Below are positions 4,145 to 39,235 of a stretch of DNA of 64,000 nt, in pieces. The notes below the pieces were generated by a model. It worked only from the letters and a program-made list of their open reading frames with translations. It was not told the origin of the DNA and did not search any database. The first letter of the stretch is position 1, and the number at the start of each line of letters is the position of its first letter. A program made the position numbers and the translations under genes. Source of the DNA: a virus. Its lineage: Duplodnaviria > Caudoviricetes. Location of the stretch: the IMG/VR virus record IMGVR_UViG_3300027884_000039, positions 15,113 to 79,112 of that record; one strand, written 5' to 3'.

Positions 4145-5275
4145 ATGCCACTACCTCCCATTAATGATACCCAATACATCGATGCGCGATCAGGGCTGAT
4201 CGCCCCCTGGTTTACCAAGCCATTCCTAGAGGAATTATACACCTGGGACTTGCGTACGAAGCGCGTCTTTGAATATGGGTGTGGGCATAGCACCATTTGG
4301 TGGACTACCCAGGTAATGGAACTCATTGCCGTGGACTGCGACGAGCGATGGACGGAGGATATATACAGAGAACTAGCCTTCAACGTGATTCAGGGTGCCA
4401 ATGTGGTGACCTTAAAATGCAGACCAGTCATTGCTGGTGAAGTGGAGTTGAAGAGCCGGTACGTTAATGCAATCTATGAGGAGGAAGGCCAGTTCGATAT
4501 CATTGTGATCGATGGCTCCTATCGCGACGAATGTATTGCGGCTGCGCTCACCAAGATCAAAGATGGGGGGATTATCATCTGTGATAACTGGGACCAGGAA
4601 GGTGTATGGGATAGTATCATGGGGGGCAGGTTGCTTGATCCCTGGGAAGCTCATCTGTATATAGAGCCGAGTAGGACTAACGATGTGCGTCCGTGGAAAA
4701 CGGGATACTGGATTATTCAAAAAATGCGGTGTTGGGGCATGGGAAATTATTTTCCGACAGACTATCTATTGAATGTCACTGATTCATTCAACTCCCACCG
4801 CCCGATGCTCTGGATGGCACTAGAGCATATCAAACCTGGACGCGTGGTTGAATTCGGCTGCGGCTGGGGCAGCACCCCGCTCCTCCACCGGTATTGCATG
4901 CTCCAGGGCCGCGACTTCGCTAGCTGGGAGACGGATCGGGATTGGTCGGTGAAGATGGATAACCTTACCCGGCATGTCAGGTCCTACTTTGATTGGAATC
5001 CGGAGATGTCGATTTCCCTCCTGTTCATCGACTCGGCCCCAGGAGAAGAACGCGCCAAATTGGTCGAATACTACCGCAATAGAGCCGTCGTGCTTGTCAT
5101 ACATGACACCGAACCCGAGGCTGAGTACGTATATCACCTCCAGGAGACGCTGGCAAGCTTCCCCTACCGCTGCGATCTGGTGATCGAGGGCTATCCACAA
5201 ACGACAGCGGTGAGCATGACCTATGACTTTGCACGCTGGAAGGGCGTGACATTGGGTAAATACAAGTTCGTATGA
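4145..5275 (+). CDS. tandem two-domain class I SAM-dependent methyltransferase
   Basis: motif I twice (VFEYGCGHST; VVEFGCGWGST) with matching FDIIVIDG..IICDN and LLFIDS..VIHDT motifs. Confidence 0.8.
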   Translation: MPLPPINDTQYIDARSGLIAPWFTKPFLEELYTWDLRTKRVFEYGCGHSTIWWTTQVMELIAVDCDERWTEDIYRELAFNVIQGANVVTLKCRPVIAGEVELKSRYVNAIYEEEGQFDIIVIDGSYRDECIAAALTKIKDGGIIICDNWDQEGVWDSIMGGRLLDPWEAHLYIEPSRTNDVRPWKTGYWIIQKMRCWGMGNYFPTDYLLNVTDSFNSHRPMLWMALEHIKPGRVVEFGCGWGSTPLLHRYCMLQGRDFASWETDRDWSVKMDNLTRHVRSYFDWNPEMSISLLFIDSAPGEERAKLVEYYRNRAVVLVIHDTEPEAEYVYHLQETLASFPYRCDLVIEGYPQTTAVSMTYDFARWKGVTLGKYKFV

Positions 5276-5451
5276 GCGAGCAGCTATCCTTCATATGGCG
5301 TCACCTTGATCTGTTCACCTACGCCGCAGGATTCTGCTTCGGCGCATCGATAGGCTTCAACCTTGGTCGGACCCTTGAAGCACGCGATCATAGGCGCCGA
5401 GAGCTAGACAATTTTTTGAAGAGCGATCGAAACAAACTAGACGAATTGTGA
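5272..5451 (+). CDS. small membrane protein (59 aa, below track cut-off)
   Basis: hand-translated MSEQLSFIWRHLDLFTYAAGFCFGASIGFNLG...DEL*; ATGA overlap. Confidence 0.55.
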   Translation: MSEQLSFIWRHLDLFTYAAGFCFGASIGFNLGRTLEARDHRRRELDNFLKSDRNKLDEL

Positions 5452-5486
5452 AATAACCCGCTGCGCGGTCAAGCGCATTCGCCATC

Positions 5487-6041
5487 TTGCAGCGCATGGA
5501 CGGCATTACAGAATCATTGCTTTCAAAGGCCCTGCATATCATTGCAGAACTCACCTCGATGGTCAATCGATTACTGCCCCGTCAACATATTCCCACAGCA
5601 GCCGCCCTTCGGGCTTGCTATATAACCCAAGGAAATAGGGAAGCCCATAAAAACAAACTTATGGCATCCCAGACAATTACCGTACTCAGTACGCAGAACA
5701 CCGTACCCGGACAAATCGTTCCCGTAGCTATCGATGGGGTCACCGTCGAACCCATTACGACCATTAACGCCGGTAGTGAACTTTACACCGTTGTCGATCA
5801 GTCCACCGGTACCACAAGCACCGTTGCTACCGTGGCACCCGTTTCTGGAGGCGCAGAAGGACAGTTCGCTGTTGTCCGGATCACTGGGCAGAGTGGTACG
5901 GTCATCGTCACCTATACCGCTGTCAATACAGCCGGTACGACCATTACCAACTTTGGTGGGGTCGGTGACACCATCATCTTCCAGGGACAGCCCACCGGCG
6001 TCGCCTCGGCCCTCACGGCCACCTACGGGACGCCCGTATAG
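5487..6041 (+). CDS. Thr/Val/Gly-rich beta protein, Ig-like (possible virion accessory protein)
   Basis: beta-rich C-terminal 126 aa from MASQTITV (alternative start 5661); amphipathic N-terminal helix. Confidence 0.55.
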   Translation: MQRMDGITESLLSKALHIIAELTSMVNRLLPRQHIPTAAALRACYITQGNREAHKNKLMASQTITVLSTQNTVPGQIVPVAIDGVTVEPITTINAGSELYTVVDQSTGTTSTVATVAPVSGGAEGQFAVVRITGQSGTVIVTYTAVNTAGTTITNFGGVGDTIIFQGQPTGVASALTATYGTPV

Positions 6042-8624: not shown

Positions 8625-11600
8625 CTAATGTAATTTATTAGTTGCCATGAAATTAATGAGTGTCGCATGTTTAATTACTTGCTCCGCATGGTATGCCTGC
8701 CCCTCACTCACATAGTTCCAAAATAAGGGTCGTTGCTCTTTGGATAGTAAACCTACCATTGTCTTGGCGATTTCCTTATTACCCGCTTTGTCAGACCCCC
8801 ACAATTCAATAATTTTTTGGAAGTGATCATAGTTGTTATTCATATACGTTTAGTTTATTTACTCTTTAATTCATAATTCCATTCGCCATCGATGGTTCTG
8901 AACGGACGCACTATAGTTGGATGCCCCTGTCTATATAGATCGATTGAAACAATGGTGCGCACATCAACTCCTTGCTGCTCCAGGTGATCAAAGATCAGCG
9001 ATAACCAGGGCTTGCAATCGATCCCCTCTATTACTTTGCCGTTTTCATCAAAACAGCTATAGTGCCCATTATCAGCGATTAACATGGAATGTACTTTCAT
9101 ATACGTTTAGTTTATTTACAGCCCCGTTACGAAGACCTCCAAAGGGAAGAGGCGGGGGCTGCTATCATAATTTTCCCGACTTTAGACGGGTAAACGCCGA
9201 AGTTGAAAAGACATGTATAGGCATTCACATAATAGAAATACGGCCCAATACGGAGGGGATTCATGAAACACATATTTTCCTATCAGGAATAGCGCTACCA
9301 TAAATCCCAATATCTGTAGCCACATATAAAACTCTCTATATACGCGCTTTCTCTTGGTATCTGTAATCGGTACCTGCGGTTGTTCTTCCACTGGCTCCCA
9401 TATAATGAACCGAAAGCCATTGAATGTTCTCTTGGCACCATTGATTAGCACCACTACACATGGATAACCTTCGATGTCCTCATAAATCTCCGTCACCCCC
9501 TCGTGCCCTACTTCAAAATAGTCAATATCGTCGGGGTTTTCATTACTGTTAAAGATTCTAACATTGGTATTCATATTGTTGTTTTGTGGCCGTGAAGCCG
9601 GTTAAAAATTCTTGTGGTAGAATTCGATGAACTTATTATTGATGGCAACGTACTCATTCGCCTGGGCAATTATCCCAATTTGCTTTGCCGTAAAAGAAGT
9701 GATCCATCGTAATAATTCCTTCCTTTGGGGCTGATCCATACCAGCTATTTTTTCTCTGACTCTTTTATAATCCCCAGTAATCCACCACGATAGGAATGTC
9801 TTTAAATCTGAGTCTGATAATCCTATCGGTGTTTTCTTTTGTTTCATTGGTGAAATTGTTTAGTGATTTAATCGGGGTTTTTATCGCGGCCAATGACGAT
9901 GGCATTCACATAGCCCATAACTGGACCCCCTTCCTGCTTGAAGTTTTGAAACTGACCATCGTAATAGCGTTTCTTGCCTACCTCTATTACCATTTCCATC
10001 GTGATCTCCGGATGGTCATAGCCATTCTCATAGCCATCGACCAGGACTAGCATGTCGCGAGGTAGCTTACTCAGGCGGTCCAATAGTTCGCCTACTGTTG
10101 TTTGTTCTGCCATTGTTATGCGGGATCGTTGCCCGCTACGTTTATTCAGTGATTCCAATCGGTGGACAACCACAGGTGATCGCGGCTATCATTGCATGCA
10201 AAAGCTCTTCTGTATTACAAGAACCCATCGGTTCAGGATCAAAACCGAAGGATGGTCCAGGGTCATGCTCTTGCCATGGAATTTCATTGCCATCCTTATC
10301 TACTTCTACCCGCTCGGCTTCTAGCCAGAGCTTGTACTTGTACTTCTTTTCCATTGTTGTTGGTTTTATGGTGATTAAATTAAAACTTTGGACTGAAACT
10401 CCTGCTGATTTATAAATGTCAAGGTGTCGCCAATATAGTAATGGTTGCTTACCAAATAGACCTCTTCCAATTTTCCATACTCACACACTTCTAATATCTT
10501 GATGGCTTCGGGGATGTCATCGGCAACGAATATTGTTTTGAATTTACCATTCGTTGCCTTGTAATAAAGTACAAATAGCTTCATGTTGATTGGTTTATAG
10601 GGGGCTCCTGTTACGGGAGCCCCCTGGTGAATTAATGATTCCACGGATGATGGACGAGCGGCAGAGCCGCCTTCGCCATTTCTTCATCATCTAAATAATT
10701 AGCCACATTGGCTAACGTAAGTGGCAGTTCGATGTCTACGGCCATAAATGGCTGACCGAATCCATAGGGTTGGTCATGCGGCATGTCATACGCTATTACA
10801 TCATATTCAGCGGGCTTGTCGCAAAATACTTCGGTTACCAAGCCATTGTGGATAAGAACAATAATGCGGGCTTTGTCGCTCATTTTAGTGTTTTATGGGA
10901 TGTCGTGTTATACGACATCCCTGGTGAATGATTAAGGATTGATAATGGTGCCATCCGGCAGCTTATTGGTATTGATTATGGATACCTGTTCATTGCGTGA
11001 CAGCATATACGCTTCCGGCTTTGAGATACGCACGTAATAGTTTGCGTTGGTCGAAGCTACTTTCAATAGGACATAATACTCGCCGTTGCTATTGATAATA
11101 GCCATTGACGTGGTTATCACTCGTTGCCTTGTTGGTTTGTTTGACATCGGATGGATTTTTAAAGTGCGTTAATACAAAGGATAGCACGGGTATAAGCATT
11201 ATTGCTATCCTCTTGGAATGCTTGTTTAAGCATATGCCTTAATGCCGCCTTGCGCTTGTCTTTGTTCAGCGATAAAAATAACTCTACCGCCTTGTCTGGA
11301 TCATCTATTGATGTGCGAATGATCGTGTCATAATAGACCGGGTTGAGGGTTTTACACATGGCTGTACGGTTTAGTGTGACCAAAATAATGCCCACTGCTT
11401 CGCTCCACCGCGCTTGTGTCCATCGCCTGTGGTCTGGTAATGCGCACCTTCCGGTTCACTACCTTACTCACGACCTCGCCTAACTCCGCGAGGTTGTCCA
11501 TCGTAATGTAGGCATAGACCGGTTCTTCGAACGCTGTCCTTGGTCCCTCCGCTGCCACCTGGACAGCAATTAACTGGGGGATTGTTTTTTTCTTGTTCAT

Positions 11601-36968: not shown

Positions 36969-37039
36969 CGCGAGGTCATCTAACGGTAGGATACCGGGCT
37001 CATAACCCGAGAATTCGGGTTCGATTCCCGACTTCGCAA
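36969..37039 (+). tRNA. initiator tRNA-fMet(CAT)
   Basis: C1:A72 mismatch, GGG/CCC in the anticodon stem, loop CTCATAA, T-arm TCGGG TTCGATT CCCGA. Confidence 0.85.
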
Positions 37040-37053
37040 CAAAACTATAACCA

Positions 37054-37842
37054 ATGAAATTAAATGTACTCCTTGCGCGAGCCGAACATACTGGTGCGCA
37101 GTTCAAAATGATGATTCAAACATATGCACATACTTTCACGCATAAACAGGAGATATTCAGGGGCACTAAGAAGACTTATACGAAGGCACCGGGTTCGGAT
37201 GATTTCCCCAACATGAGCGGCAACGAAAAAGTGCAATCGTCGGTCGATGAATATTTGCAATGGTTTGAAGACACAGCCGACGAGTTTATTACTCACCGTT
37301 TTAACATTGAGGCTACGAATGCCTCCGGGCCAAAAGCTGAGCTTATCGTCGGTGGGCAGAAATTTGGCAGTTATAGCACCTGCGAGCTAATGCGGCTCAA
37401 TGATTTTTTAAATAGTCCTGAATTACTGAAGATGTATTCTATCCTGCCTGTGCGTAGTGATACAGAGAACTGGAAGGAGACTACCGATCCGGAAGGCATA
37501 AAAAAGAAGTTGTGGGAAACCGACATCAAGAAACTACCCCATAACACGACGATTAAAGGTTGGATTATCCTCCCCGATCCGAATGTGGAGAAACTGAAGG
37601 CCGGTAGTCCGTATACACCTATTAAGGAGTCCAGTGATACGAAAGTGTATTTAGGGGAACAGACCATGCAGAAGTTTAGCGGGGAATGGAGTCATGCTGA
37701 TCGGGCCAGTCTGCTGCGCAGGCTCACGATGCTAAAAGCGTCCGTGAAGGAAGCGCTAGTCACAGCCAATGAAACGCCAATGGTGGAATCGGAATTAACG
37801 GCGAAAAAAATATTCGGGTATTTGCATCGTGGAACAATTTGA
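37054..37842 (+). CDS. conserved helical protein of unknown function (DUF7873-like by recollection)
   Basis: MKLNVLLA..GTKKTY..KVQSSV..TNASG.KAELIV..LMRL..KFSGEW..L..SVKEALVTAN. Confidence 0.7.
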   Translation: MKLNVLLARAEHTGAQFKMMIQTYAHTFTHKQEIFRGTKKTYTKAPGSDDFPNMSGNEKVQSSVDEYLQWFEDTADEFITHRFNIEATNASGPKAELIVGGQKFGSYSTCELMRLNDFLNSPELLKMYSILPVRSDTENWKETTDPEGIKKKLWETDIKKLPHNTTIKGWIILPDPNVEKLKAGSPYTPIKESSDTKVYLGEQTMQKFSGEWSHADRASLLRRLTMLKASVKEALVTANETPMVESELTAKKIFGYLHRGTI

Positions 37843-37931
37843 CAAAGCCTTAGCTTTAGCCTTAGCTTAACACGATTCTAGTTAAATCAACTTTAGCTTC
37901 GCGTCAAAAGCCTCAGCTTTGTATGTTAGAT

Positions 37932-38071
37932 CGTGGTGTCAAGCTGACCAGAGCGGAAGGGCACAGGTTCGAATCCTGTCTCGGCCTCCAGATCATTCGA
38001 TCCGGAGGCCGAGTAGATACAGCGGCTAGATCATTCTGCATTTTAGCCTCAGTAAGCTTGAAAACATTGCG
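37932..38071 (+). ncRNA. circularly permuted tRNA-like RNA with YrlA (Y RNA-like) topology
   Basis: order: long stem 5' strand, T-arm ACAGG TTCGAAT CCTGT, closed acceptor stem CTCGGCCTCC/GGAGGCCGAG, D-arm TAGATACAGCGGCTAGATCA, long stem 3' strand. Confidence 0.75.
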
Positions 38072-38137
38072 AACGTCACGCTGACTTGAAAATCAGCAGC
38101 AGACTGAAAATCTGCCCGTGATTTGGGATCACGTTTG

Positions 38138-38169
38138 GGGCCAGGCAGGATACGACCTGGCCCTTTTTT
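38138..38169 (+). terminator. intrinsic terminator
   Basis: GGGCCAGG/CCTGGCCC followed by TTTTTT. Confidence 0.8.
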
Positions 38170-38918: not shown

Positions 38919-39137
38919 ATGATGAAAGAAAAGCAACTCGAATACTTGAACTTCAAAGGGTCTGTTCGGTACCAGTTGGAAGATCAAAAATGGTTTGGGG
39001 AAATCCTGAATATTACAGACTTGGTGTACTACGAAGCCGAATCGATTAAAGGACTGGAAGATGTGTTCAAGGAGGCGGTGGATGATTATCTGGATACCTG
39101 CAAAGAACTTAATAGGGAAATACCCTGGAAAAAATAA
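38919..39137 (+). CDS. HicB-family antitoxin-like protein (no HicA seen)
   Basis: LEYLNFKGSVRY..KWFGEILNITDLVYYEAESIKGLEDVFKEAVDDYL. Confidence 0.8.
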   Translation: MMKEKQLEYLNFKGSVRYQLEDQKWFGEILNITDLVYYEAESIKGLEDVFKEAVDDYLDTCKELNREIPWKK

Positions 39138-39140
39138 TAA

Positions 39141-39231
39141 GCCGAAGTGCCGGAATTGGTAGACGGCATCGATGATATCGATGGAGCTTATACTAGATTA
39201 GCTCGTGGGGGCTCGTATCCTCCCTTCGGCT
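39141..39231 (+). tRNA. atypical tRNA-like gene: tRNA-Leu-type body with GAT in the anticodon position
   Basis: acceptor GCCGAAG/CTTCGGC, Leu-type D-loop GAATTGGTAGAC, long variable arm GAGCT/AGCTC, stem CATCG ATGATAT CGATG, T-loop CTCGTAT. Confidence 0.6.
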
Positions 39232-39235
39232 CAAT

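What the first reader, a model, noticed from the sequence alone, without database searches (positions are those of the whole stretch)
37932..38071. Circularly permuted tRNA mimic with YrlA (bacterial Y RNA) topology but no Ro60 gene nearby
Seen: a perfect T-arm (ACAGG TTCGAAT CCTGT, 37963-37979) runs directly into a 10-bp acceptor-like stem (37980-37989/38004-38013) capped by a small GATC/GATC hairpin. Next come T8-A9 and a D-arm-like segment with GG (38014-38033). Then TTCTGC (38034-39) pairs back to GCGGAA (37953-58) in the anticodon-stem position, and the helix extends via TCAAGCT/AGCTTGA and CGTGGTG/CATTGCG. Established: this T-acceptor-D order with a long stem replacing the anticodon arm is the YrlA architecture, normally encoded beside ro60/rsr. 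Inference: an Ro-independent Y-like RNA whose partner may be the upstream protein or a host Ro60.
Basis: partly seen in the sequence, partly recalled or inferred. Interest (0 to 1): 0.8.

Follow-up and report, generated by a model that had tools for sequence, protein, structure and literature searches.

The report
Back-to-front tRNA mimic RNA with DUF7873
The phage stretch is a real, conserved RNA shaped like a tRNA with its halves swapped and no anticodon. It is the head of a roughly 300-base RNA that travels with an unstudied protein (DUF7873) and pairs with a second anticodon-less tRNA look-alike, so it is probably an undescribed relative of the Ro60/Y-RNA particles.

Summary
In 17 related loci the four helices of the permuted cloverleaf are 95% paired, and 18 of 21 pairs show compensatory changes.

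The topology is that of YrlA, but the Rfam YrlA model scores 19 bits against a threshold of 69. The RNA is about 300 nt, and the complete 79-kb phage has no TROVE, DUF2828/DUF7788 or RtcB gene.

The element always lies 120-150 nt downstream of a DUF7873 gene (PF25283), here 37054-37842. Earlier notes of this scan report the same gene-RNA pair in many other genomes.

- A 5' box of the RNA (TCTAGT, 37877-82) is complementary to the variable-arm loop (ACTAGA, 39192-97) of a second, Leu-type tRNA look-alike without an anticodon (39141-39232). The pairing is kept through 12 different sequence versions (0 of 7401 permutations reach the observed value).
- In three jumbo-phage contigs a DUF2828/DUF7788 protein sits directly upstream of DUF7873. 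For one of them I modelled the protein, and it folds like Ro60.

Best reading: a Y-RNA-like particle built on DUF7873, with the Ro60-like subunit optional. Its function is unknown and probably tRNA-related. I found no published description.

The parts
36969..37040 (+). tRNA-Met(CAT) gene 13 nt upstream of the DUF7873 start codon. A tRNA directly upstream recurs in relatives, which suggests co-transcription with the tRNA cluster.
   Evidence: ARAGORN and Rfam tRNA model at 53 bits. A tRNA lies just upstream of the gene in L005, L007, L008, L014 and L015.
37054..37842 (+). DUF7873 protein gene (262 aa), the candidate protein partner of the RNA.
   Evidence: Pfam PF25283, E = 8e-29. 94 homologues found. 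AF2 model has pLDDT 86 and no fold match in PDB or BFVD.
37838..37843 (+). TTGACA, a -35-like hexamer overlapping the stop codon. It is followed 17-18 nt later by TTAGCT/TAGCTT. Possibly the RNA's own promoter.
   Evidence: Read from the sequence. The same spacing is kept in L005, L006, L007, L012, L014 and L009. The simple consensus scan did not call it.
37850..37867 (+). Three tandem hexamer repeats (TAGCTT TAGCCT TAGCTT). Further copies lie at 37893, 37913 and 38043.
   Evidence: 6 of the 45 YYAGC[CTA]T sites in the 64-kb window fall within 37850-38050. The repeats are conserved in all relatives.
37877..37882 (+). 5' box TCTAGT, complementary to the variable-arm loop of the second tRNA look-alike (39192-39197).
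   Evidence: The box lies 4-10 nt upstream of the conserved TWAGYNTYG anchor in all loci. 12 co-varying versions were found, and 0 of 7401 partner permutations reach the observed complementarity.
37932..37945 (+). 5' strands of the outer helices P1 (CGTGGTG) and P2 (TCAAGCT).
   Evidence: They pair with 38055-38071. RNAalifold finds 16 pairs, most with compensatory changes.
37953..38039 (+). Circularly permuted tRNA-like core. In order: anticodon-stem 3' strand, variable region, T-arm, acceptor 3' strand plus T73 and CCA, cap hairpin, acceptor 5' strand, T8-A9, D-arm, anticodon-stem 5' strand.
   Evidence: Covariance model R1 scores 78.9 bits. Covariation counts. Rfam YrlA scores 19 bits over the same stretch.
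38040..38054 (+). 3' side of the internal loop that replaces the anticodon loop. It carries hexamer-repeat copies (TTTAGCCTCAG).
   Evidence: AGCYTN copies at this position are conserved in L005, L006, L007, L012 and L014.
38055..38071 (+). 3' strands of P2 (AGCTTGA) and P1 (CATTGCG), separated by a conserved AAA bulge.
   Evidence: The motif YTGAAAAC is conserved.
38080..38133 (+). Three hairpins. H1 is 38080-97 (loop CTTGAAAA), H2 is 38099-115 (5-bp stem, 7-nt loop CTGAAAA shaped like an anticodon loop), H3 is 38117-33.
   Evidence: Fold z-score -4.0. H2 is conserved with covariation. Relatives carry CUNNUAA loops.
38137..38169 (+). Terminal hairpin (9 bp) followed by T6. It looks like a terminator, but its loop CAGGATACG is conserved; its AGGATACGA stretch (38147-55) runs one base into the 3' strand of the stem.
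   Evidence: The loop motif RGGATAYNGA is kept in distant loci, and L012 lacks the T-run.
39141..39232 (+). Second tRNA look-alike, class II (Leu-type D-loop GGTAGAC). Its 7-bp 'anticodon' stem is closed by a 3-nt loop, so it has no anticodon. It has an 11-nt variable-arm loop holding ACTAGA (39192-97) and an unusual T-loop CTCGTAT.
   Evidence: ARAGORN calls it a 92-nt tRNA. It folds as a cloverleaf and has no Rfam match at E <= 1. Homologues follow the RNA in relatives.

Best explanation
The 37932-38071 element is the tRNA-shaped head of a structured non-coding RNA of about 300 nt, running from roughly 37870 to 38169. The RNA is built on the plan of bacterial YrlA Y RNAs.

Shown here:
- The permuted cloverleaf, the bulged outer stem and the terminal hairpin are under structural selection.
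- The RNA is genetically coupled to the DUF7873 gene directly upstream.
- Its 5' box is complementary, with covariation, to a loop of a second anticodon-less tRNA look-alike. That second RNA is encoded right after the first in relatives and about 1 kb downstream here.
- In three sampled jumbo-phage contigs a DUF2828/DUF7788 gene directly precedes DUF7873, and the protein I modelled has a Ro60 fold.

Inferred:
- DUF7873 binds the RNA, probably at the single-stranded YAGCYU hexamer copies in the leader and in the internal loop at the anticodon position, possibly as an oligomer.
- The 6-9 bp loop pairing docks the Leu-type mimic. The particle then displays two tRNA-shaped modules.
- It acts as Y RNAs do, as a scaffold or gate that brings tRNA-recognising enzymes (processing, modification, repair or decay) to the protein, or that titrates them during infection.
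- Where the Ro60-like ring is absent, as in this phage, DUF7873 alone or a host Ro60 would serve.
- The 7-bp acceptor with U73, C74 (and CCA here) is probably cut by RNase P and given a CCA end, as in M. smegmatis YrlA. That would leave two strands held together by the helices.
For: - Structure: covariation in all four cloverleaf helices and in P1/P2, H2 and the terminal hairpin.
- Linkage: the module lies 120-150 nt downstream of a DUF7873 stop codon on the same strand, in loci whose DUF7873 proteins are only 24-58% identical to the window's. Model R1 scores them at 42-92 bits. These include Rhizobium phage RHph_TM30.
- Repeats: the hexamers are about 40-fold enriched in the RNA, and copies lie inside the covarying structure.
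- Loop pairing: own-partner complementarity sums to 81, against 55.9 +/- 3.4 for swapped partners, with 0 of 7401 permutations as high. There are 12 sequence versions, and the partner site lies in a hairpin loop.
- Ro60 link: the DUF2828/DUF7788 protein of L009 gives Ro60/TROVE structures as its top 13 Foldseek hits (E = 1e-8 to 5e-6, about 500-610 aligned columns). In three of three sampled loci that gene is followed within 2-9 nt by DUF7873, and where DNA was available the module is present (L009 57.2 bits; L030 51.6 bits).
- Context: tRNA clusters; RNA ligase, phosphoesterase and a PNK-like kinase around DUF7873 in L028, and Band_7 in L027; phosphatases upstream in the window.
- Precedent: M. 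smegmatis YrlA, with a 7-bp acceptor, is cut by RNase P and receives CCA in vivo (PMC4201824).
Against: - There are no transcript, binding or processing data of any kind.
- The DUF7873 model has no recognisable RNA-binding fold and no structural relative.
- Some DUF7873 genes lack the RNA nearby. L013 and Lak phage L003 have none, and L027 has only a weak hit 1 kb away. An earlier check in this scan rated the protein-binds-RNA claim at only 22 in 100.
- The hexamer run overlaps a plausible promoter, so part of it may act at the DNA level.
- In this single genome the box-loop duplex is only 6 bp (-6.3 kcal/mol), which is not significant on its own (p about 0.15). The partner gene here is about 1 kb away rather than adjacent.
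- This genome encodes no RNA ligase, RtcB, PNK-like kinase or CCA-adding enzyme, so a repair role would depend on the host.
Confidence: 0.55

Rival explanations
1. Processed, chargeable two-piece tRNA mimic. RNase P and 3' trimming with CCA addition open the acceptor, as in permuted tmRNA genes and M. smegmatis YrlA. The open end is then aminoacylated or used by an aminoacyl-tRNA-dependent enzyme, and that, rather than scaffolding, is the point of the RNA. This overlaps with the best explanation up to the charging step.
For: - The acceptor is an exact 7 bp, with U73 and C74 invariant in 17 loci and CCA encoded in the window and in L004.
- The cap varies from 17 to about 150 nt with no conserved sequence, like an excised spacer.
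- The phages' ordinary tRNA genes also show N73-C74 without an encoded CA.
- A HisRS-like fragment lies downstream in L008.
Against: - No anticodon, no G3:U70, no long variable arm and no G-1 on this module, so none of the anticodon-independent identity sets (Ala, Ser, Leu, His) is present.
- In close relatives the acceptor continues as an 8-bp perfect extension (TCCGGATC with GATCCGGA in L006), which looks like a stable closed hairpin.
- ARAGORN finds no tmRNA and there is no tag reading frame.
Confidence: 0.2
2. Decoy or sponge for host tRNA-targeting weapons such as anticodon nucleases or tRNA-cleaving and tRNA-modifying toxins. The tRNA-shaped heads and the anticodon-loop-like hairpins soak up the enzymes, and DUF7873 only stabilises the RNA.
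For: - 3' hairpins with 5-bp stems and 7-nt loops of anticodon-loop form (CUNNUAA; CUGAAAA in the window), with the middle triplet varying between phages.
- Location among phage tRNA genes, and RNA-repair genes next to DUF7873 in L028.
- A HicB-like antitoxin gene nearby at 38919-39137.
Against: - Both tRNA look-alikes lack the anticodon loop that most such nucleases cut.
- The hairpins are the least conserved part of the RNA.
- A sponge does not explain the conserved loop pairing, the hexamer repeats or the Ro60-like partner in relatives.
Confidence: 0.15
3. Cis-acting leader or regulator. The RNA senses the second tRNA look-alike or a tRNA, T-box style, and controls the terminal hairpin and so read-through into downstream genes. 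Alternatively the hexamer repeats are a DNA operator for autoregulation of the locus.
For: - The RNA pairs with a tRNA-shaped RNA through a loop, and ends in a terminator-like hairpin with a conserved loop. That loop is 9-nt complementary to the T-loop of the partner in the window, L005 and L006.
- The repeats overlap a promoter-like TTGACA-N17-TTAGCT.
Against: - Downstream genes differ between loci (an ORF, a tRNA, or the tRNA look-alike itself), and L012 has no T-run.
- No alternative antiterminator pairing was seen.
- Rfam T-box models give no hit.
Confidence: 0.07
4. Not functional: a rearranged or decaying tRNA gene, or the chance junction of two tRNA halves.
For: The covariance model also gives weak hits (15-40 bits) at junctions of ordinary tandem tRNA genes. 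PMC4201824 warns of the same artefact.
Against: True modules score 42-92 bits. The acceptor 3' and 5' strands are complementary in every locus with compensatory changes, which tandem tRNA junctions are not. The flanking helices are conserved as well.
Confidence: 0.01

Closest known systems
YrlA (Y RNA-like A, Rfam RF02553) with Ro60/Rsr, especially the M. smegmatis form (Chen et al. 2014, PMC4201824)
   Same: Both have a tRNA-like domain in the order T-arm, acceptor-like stem, D-arm, with the RNA ends in a long stem where the anticodon arm would be. Both occur in phages and bacteria. The 7-bp acceptor matches the M. smegmatis form, which is cut by RNase P and receives CCA. In relatives a Ro60-fold protein is encoded in the same operon.
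   Different: - It fails the Rfam model (19 bits against 69), and I did not see the GNCGAAN0-1G Ro-binding motif.
- It is about 300 nt rather than 80-130 nt.
- It carries hexamer repeats, extra 3' hairpins and a conserved terminal loop.
- The constant neighbour is DUF7873, not Ro60, and this phage has no Ro60 of any detectable kind.
- It pairs with a second tRNA mimic.
DUF2828/DUF7788 Ro60-like proteins with 'handle' RNAs (ACAGCAA), known only from earlier unpublished notes of this scan
   Same: The same Ro60-fold protein family sits directly upstream of DUF7873 and the RNA in L009, L030 and the P0211 contig. L009 and L025 RNAs contain AACAGCAA next to the module.
   Different: The window's phage lacks that protein. 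Its RNA has CAGCAGC (38093-99) rather than ACAGCAA. The earlier notes I retrieved did not connect that system with DUF7873.
Two-piece (circularly permuted) tmRNA genes
   Same: The gene order is the same: T-arm and 3' acceptor strand first, then a variable spacer, then the 5' acceptor strand and D region. A long helix replaces the anticodon arm.
   Different: There is no G3:U70, no tag reading frame, no pseudoknots and no ARAGORN call.
Circularly permuted tRNA genes of Cyanidioschyzon merolae and some archaea
   Same: The 3' half is encoded upstream of the 5' half.
   Different: Those genes restore a normal anticodon loop after circularisation. Here the anticodon loop is replaced by an internal loop and 16 bp of helix, so no decoding tRNA can result.
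T-box leader with tRNA; kissing-loop complexes
   Same: A short loop-to-loop or loop-to-strand pairing with a tRNA-shaped partner (its anticodon loop in L020, L025 and L028) that co-varies between lineages.
   Different: There is no T-box sequence, no antiterminator and no link to an aminoacyl-tRNA synthetase gene. In the window's clade the contact is with the variable-arm loop.

Membership tests
YrlA (Rfam RF02553) | Scores at or above the family's gathering score (69 bits) with the Rfam covariance model | tested here: not met
   19.0 bits, E = 0.2, model positions 23-86 only. No hit at gathering threshold.
YrlA (Rfam RF02553) | tRNA-like domain in the order T-arm, acceptor-like stem, D-arm, closed by a long stem | tested here: met
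YrlA (Rfam RF02553) | Encoded next to a Ro60/Rsr (TROVE) gene | tested here: not met
   No TROVE, DUF2828 or DUF7788 match, and no match to the Ro60-like profile A9, in the complete 79-kb genome. The controls for TROVE worked. A Ro60-fold gene is adjacent only in distant relatives.
YrlA (Rfam RF02553) | Ro60-binding module with GNCGAAN0-1G in the 5' strand of the stem (PMC4201824) | tested here: not met
   Read by eye; I ran no pattern search. The 5' strand 37925-37962 does not show the motif. The conserved motif there is GTCARG opposite YTGAAAAC.
YrlA (Rfam RF02553) | Bound by Ro60; carries tRNA modifications (T54, pseudouridine 55, dihydrouridine) | not testable with these tools
   Needs immunoprecipitation and modification mapping.
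DUF7873-associated tRNA-mimic RNA (unpublished class seen repeatedly in this scan) | Lies just downstream of a PF25283 gene on the same strand | tested here: met
   The T-arm starts 121 nt after the stop codon of the DUF7873 gene.
DUF7873-associated tRNA-mimic RNA (unpublished class seen repeatedly in this scan) | Permuted core with 7-bp acceptor, U73-C74, hexamer repeats and an outer bulged stem | tested here: met
   This window has one module, not the two reported for some other members.
Two-piece tmRNA | G3:U70 alanine identity, tag reading frame, detection by ARAGORN | tested here: not met
   Position 3:70 is C:G here and never G:U in the 17 loci listed (reading its acceptor strands). No tmRNA call.
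Circularly permuted tRNA gene (functional tRNA) | A 7-nt anticodon loop restored across the RNA's termini | tested here: not met
   A 5-6 bp anticodon stem opens into a 7/15-nt internal loop and then 16 bp of P2/P1.
Ro60 (TROVE plus vWA) fold, for the DUF2828/DUF7788 neighbour in relatives | Full-length structural match to solved Ro60 structures | tested here: met
   AF2 model with pLDDT 80.6. 1yvp, 2i91, 9kop, 1yvr, 9l5y and 2nvo are among the top 13 hits, at E = 1e-8 to 5e-6 and TM 0.34-0.59. The Pfam TROVE HMM does not detect it.

The most novel reading that the evidence does not exclude
A three-part particle: DUF7873 protein, a Y-RNA-like RNA with a permuted tRNA head, and a separately encoded Leu-type tRNA mimic without an anticodon. 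The mimic docks on the first RNA through a co-evolving loop pairing, possibly with a second contact between the terminal loop and the mimic's T-loop. DUF7873 would be the constant core of a widespread, undescribed branch of Ro60/Y-RNA systems, in which the Ro60-like ring is an optional add-on. The particle would act on tRNAs during phage infection.
Probability: 0.35. Interest if true: 0.85.

Novelty: new variant of a known kind. Interest (0 to 1): 0.72.

Why it matters
Y RNAs and Ro60 are conserved from bacteria to humans, yet what the tRNA-like domain of bacterial Y RNAs does is still unknown.

This RNA class keeps that domain and swaps or supplements the Ro60 partner with an unstudied protein. 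It also recruits a second tRNA mimic by base pairing. That offers a compact, genetically tractable phage system in which to ask what such particles do.

The direct adjacency of a Ro60-fold protein that Pfam's TROVE model misses (DUF2828/DUF7788) to DUF7873 links two gene families of unknown function to Ro/Y-RNA biology. The co-varying loop pairing gives a ready-made genetic test by compensatory mutation.

The class also matters for annotation. These loci are currently read as odd tRNAs or as empty intergenic space.

Tried and rejected
- Close relatives by DNA: megablast of the locus against phage records, an exact-pattern scan of viral contigs, and a single-protein scan all found nothing.
- Distant blastn of the RNA found only T-arm matches to ordinary tRNAs. 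Two 'unannotated' hits were ordinary tRNAs in Escherichia phage 18-1-2 and an unrelated 1-kb non-coding region in a Vibrio phage.
- The 27-sequence alignment was too diverse for locus search. The genome-contig scan found no relative.
- The terminal-loop pattern scan gave one true locus and one spurious coding hit.
- Fold of DUF7873: Foldseek listed several Cascade Cas7 backbone chains at E = 0.01-0.16. That was tempting because Cas7 binds RNA in 6-nt steps. However TM was about 0.1, and the re-alignment by VIA-align listed none of them among its 50 best rows, Z 2.0 and above. I dropped the idea. No PDB sequence match either, and the protein atlas gave no lead.
- tmRNA, permuted functional tRNA and T-box readings were rejected (see the membership tests).
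- An unrestricted longest-complement search between leader and partner RNA was uninformative: a 6-7-nt noise floor and 52% of mismatched pairs at 6 nt or more. Only the anchored test was discriminating.

Full report
OBSERVATION.
- T-arm ACAGG TTCGAAT CCTGT at 37963-79.
- A 10-bp stem (37980-89 with 38004-13) capped by GATC ATTC GATC.
- T8-A9 and a D-arm with GG at 38014-33.
- TTCTGC (38034-39) pairing with GCGGAA (37953-58).
- An outer helix TCAAGCT/AGCTTGA and CGTGGTG/CATTGCG, with AAA bulged at 38062-64.

The inner 7 bp of the '10-bp stem' are a canonical acceptor stem, followed by T73 and CCA (37987-90). The remaining 3 bp are TCC pairing with GGA. The 156-nt stretch folds at -60.1 kcal/mol, z = -4.4. 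ARAGORN and Rfam at gathering thresholds see nothing here. In a permissive scan, one of the two best structured matches is Rfam YrlA. It scores 19.0 bits against a gathering score of 69 and covers only the tRNA-like part of the model.

THE ELEMENT IS CONSERVED AND TIED TO ONE GENE. The upstream ORF 37054-37842 is a DUF7873 protein (PF25283, E = 8e-29). I fetched DUF7873 loci from phage records, viral contigs, metagenomes and assemblies.

In 20 of 23 loci a permuted module starts 120-150 nt after the DUF7873 stop codon on the same strand (193 nt in RHph_TM30). This holds down to Rhizobium phage RHph_TM30, whose protein is 24% identical to the window's. A covariance model built from 11 of the modules scores true modules at 42-92 bits. 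It finds exactly one in the window, at 78.9 bits. Junctions of ordinary tandem tRNAs score 15-40 bits.

On 17 modules, 95% of cells pair and 18 of 21 pairs show compensatory changes. The acceptor is 100% paired with all seven pairs covarying. None of 500 shuffles reaches this, and slid controls pair 35-47%. The alignment was fitted to the model, which favours the structure. RNAalifold run de novo on a MAFFT alignment of seven close relatives gives the same helices plus the outer stem, with 33 of 56 pairs compensatory.

ANATOMY OF THE WHOLE RNA.
- A TTGACA overlapping the DUF7873 stop codon, then 17 nt, then TTAGCT. This could be a promoter, although the consensus scan did not call it.
- Three tandem hexamers TAGCYT (37850-67), with further copies at 37893, 37913 and 38043. 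Six of the 45 such sites in the 64-kb window lie in these 200 nt.
- A conserved box (GATTCTAGTT here, GATCCTAGAT in close relatives).
- A conserved stretch TTAGCTTCGCGTCAAAAGC.
- P1, an AAA bulge, and P2.
- An internal loop in place of the anticodon loop, with hexamer copies on its 3' side.
- The 5-6 bp anticodon stem and the tRNA-like core.
- Three hairpins. Two have 5-bp stems, and one of those has a 7-nt loop of anticodon-loop form.
- A terminal hairpin plus T6, whose loop (AGGATACGA here, GAAGGATATTGA in distant loci) is conserved. L012 lacks the T-run.

After the acceptor 3' strand, U73 and C74 are invariant. The cap between the two acceptor strands ranges from 17 to about 150 nt with no conserved sequence.

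A SECOND tRNA LOOK-ALIKE THAT PAIRS WITH THE RNA. ARAGORN reports odd 92-98-nt 'tRNAs' just after the terminal hairpin in relatives, and at 39141-39232 in the window. They align well and look like class II, Leu-type tRNAs with a GGTAGAC D-loop.

In the window, the 'anticodon arm' of this RNA is a 7-bp stem closed by three bases, so there is no anticodon. The variable arm carries an 11-nt loop. Rfam gives no match even at E <= 1.

That loop contains ACTAGA (39192-97), the exact complement of the box TCTAGT (37877-82). In relatives, box and loop change together:

| Loci | Box | Partner loop |
|---|---|---|
| window | TCTAGT | ACTAGA |
| L005, L006, L007, L012, L014, L009 | CCTAGA | TCTAGG |
| L018 | TTCTCGG | CCGAGAA |
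| L026 | TCTGGAT | ATCCAGA |
| L029 | ATCTGCGG | CCGCAGAT |
| L028 | TCCTAATTA | TAATTAGGA |
| L024 | ACTCGGT | ACCGAGT |
| L020 | CCATAGC | GCTATGG |
| L025 | CTCTGAC | GTCAGAG |
| L016, L017 | CTGCGT | ACGCAG |
| L019 | ACTGCG | CGCAGT |
| L008 | CCACA | TGTGG |

In the shorter, class I-sized partners (L020, L025, L028) the contact is the anticodon-arm loop. I restricted the test to the 19 nt upstream of a conserved anchor and to the inner part of the partner RNA. The own-partner sum of longest Watson-Crick runs over the 12 versions is then 81. Deranged partners give 55.9 +/- 3.4, with a maximum of 69 (0 of 7401). In the window alone the duplex is only 6 bp (-6.3 kcal/mol) and is not significant by itself. 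The evidence is the covariation. I did not find this pairing in the earlier notes of the scan that I retrieved.

Ro60 AFTER ALL, BUT NOT HERE. The complete 79-kb genome has no TROVE, DUF2828, DUF7788 or RtcB gene, and no RNA ligase, PNK-like kinase or CCA enzyme.

In L009, however, a 565-aa DUF2828(weak)/DUF7788 protein ends 4 nt before the DUF7873 start. Its AF2 model (pLDDT 80.6) matches solved Ro60 structures over its full length. The top 13 Foldseek hits are all Ro60/TROVE, including Xenopus and human Ro60, Deinococcus Rsr and a Thermus phage Ro60, at E = 1e-8 to 5e-6.

L030 carries the module at 51.6 bits. So an operon of Ro60-like gene, DUF7873 and RNA exists in three sampled large-phage contigs. 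It is absent from the window's phage, from its 76.6-kb relative, from RHph_TM30 and from Lak-B5. Three loci is a small sample.

THE PROTEIN. The DUF7873 model (pLDDT 86; three long helices and a long beta-hairpin) has no convincing match in PDB or BFVD by Foldseek or VIA-align. It also has no sequence match to any solved structure. No paper in the searched library mentions DUF7873.

Neighbours elsewhere point to RNA repair. In L028 an RNA ligase lies directly upstream, with a phosphoesterase and a PNK-like kinase downstream. L027 has Band_7. In the window a NinI-like phosphoesterase and a dual-specificity phosphatase lie upstream.

INTERPRETATION. Membership of YrlA fails on model score, motif, size and neighbour.

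I read the element as the head of a Y-RNA-like scaffold whose constant partner is DUF7873. A Ro60-fold ring is an optional third protein, and a docked Leu-type tRNA mimic is a second RNA.
- Shown: the structure, the linkage, the loop complementarity with covariation, and the Ro60 fold of the neighbour in relatives.
- Inferred: protein binding at the hexamers, processing at the acceptor (by analogy with M. smegmatis YrlA, PMC4201824), and a role in tRNA surveillance, repair or decoying.

Earlier notes of this scan describe the same DUF7873-RNA pair in many other genomes. One later check there put the claim that the protein binds the RNA at 22 in 100. I weigh it somewhat higher, because the Ro60-like/DUF7873 gene adjacency places DUF7873 inside an RNP-type operon. 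It remains untested.

Noticed in passing
window 9103-9197 (-): Type-P3 twister ribozyme, 53.2 bits against a gathering score of 39.9, with a 29-nt insertion in the P3 loop.
   Followed up: no
window 38147-38155 and 39213-39221: The terminal-hairpin loop AGGATACGA is the exact complement (9 nt) of TCGTATCCT, which spans the unusual T-loop of the second tRNA look-alike. L005 and L006 have the same pair. L007 and L014 keep it with one G-U, and L012 has a mismatch. L026, L024 and L016/17 have 7-12-nt complements at other sites of the partner, and eight loci have none. This is a possible second contact, or the hairpin may be a degenerate T-arm copy.
   Followed up: partly
window 38080-38133; L005 3537-3571; L006 3537-3571: Tandem hairpins with 5-bp stems and 7-nt loops of anticodon-loop form (CUNNUAA). 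The middle triplet differs between phages: GAA here, and CAU, UGU, UAU or CGU elsewhere. U36-A37 or A36-A37-A38 resemble the marks of t6A and i6A modification substrates.
   Followed up: partly
window 38919-39137 (+): A 72-aa ORF matching a HicB-like antitoxin family (phrog_9151, E = 2e-15). It lies between a tRNA-Ile gene and the second tRNA look-alike.
   Followed up: no
L028 1862-2980 and 4352-5886: An RNA ligase (PF09414 plus PHA02142) ends 20 nt before the DUF7873 start. A metallophosphoesterase and an AAA_33 kinase follow the RNA, giving a tRNA-repair-like gene set. L027 has a Band_7 gene upstream. L008 has a 227-aa HisRS-core fragment downstream.
   Followed up: no
L009 around 3400 and 5235-5600; L025 around 2405: AACAGCAA lies in the 5' strand next to the module in L009 and L025, and ACAGCAA follows several tRNA-like units further downstream in L009. 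Earlier notes of this scan call this motif the 'handle' of RNAs partnered with DUF2828 Ro60-like proteins. The window has CAGCAGC at 38093-99.
   Followed up: no
L002 1340-2350 (Vibrio phage 1.104.O, MG592476): A 1-kb gene-free stretch beside the capsid and neck genes. It contains a perfect T-arm enclosed by a 14-bp stem and looks like a large structured RNA unrelated to this class.
   Followed up: no
L008 2405-2477; L018 1251-1347: ARAGORN calls tRNAs with a CUA anticodon (amber-suppressor type). The one in L008 is directly upstream of DUF7873. The one in L018 is the second tRNA look-alike itself.
   Followed up: no
L001 1080-1720 (Escherichia phage 18-1-2, OK136180): Several ordinary tRNA genes are unannotated in the deposited record.
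   Followed up: no
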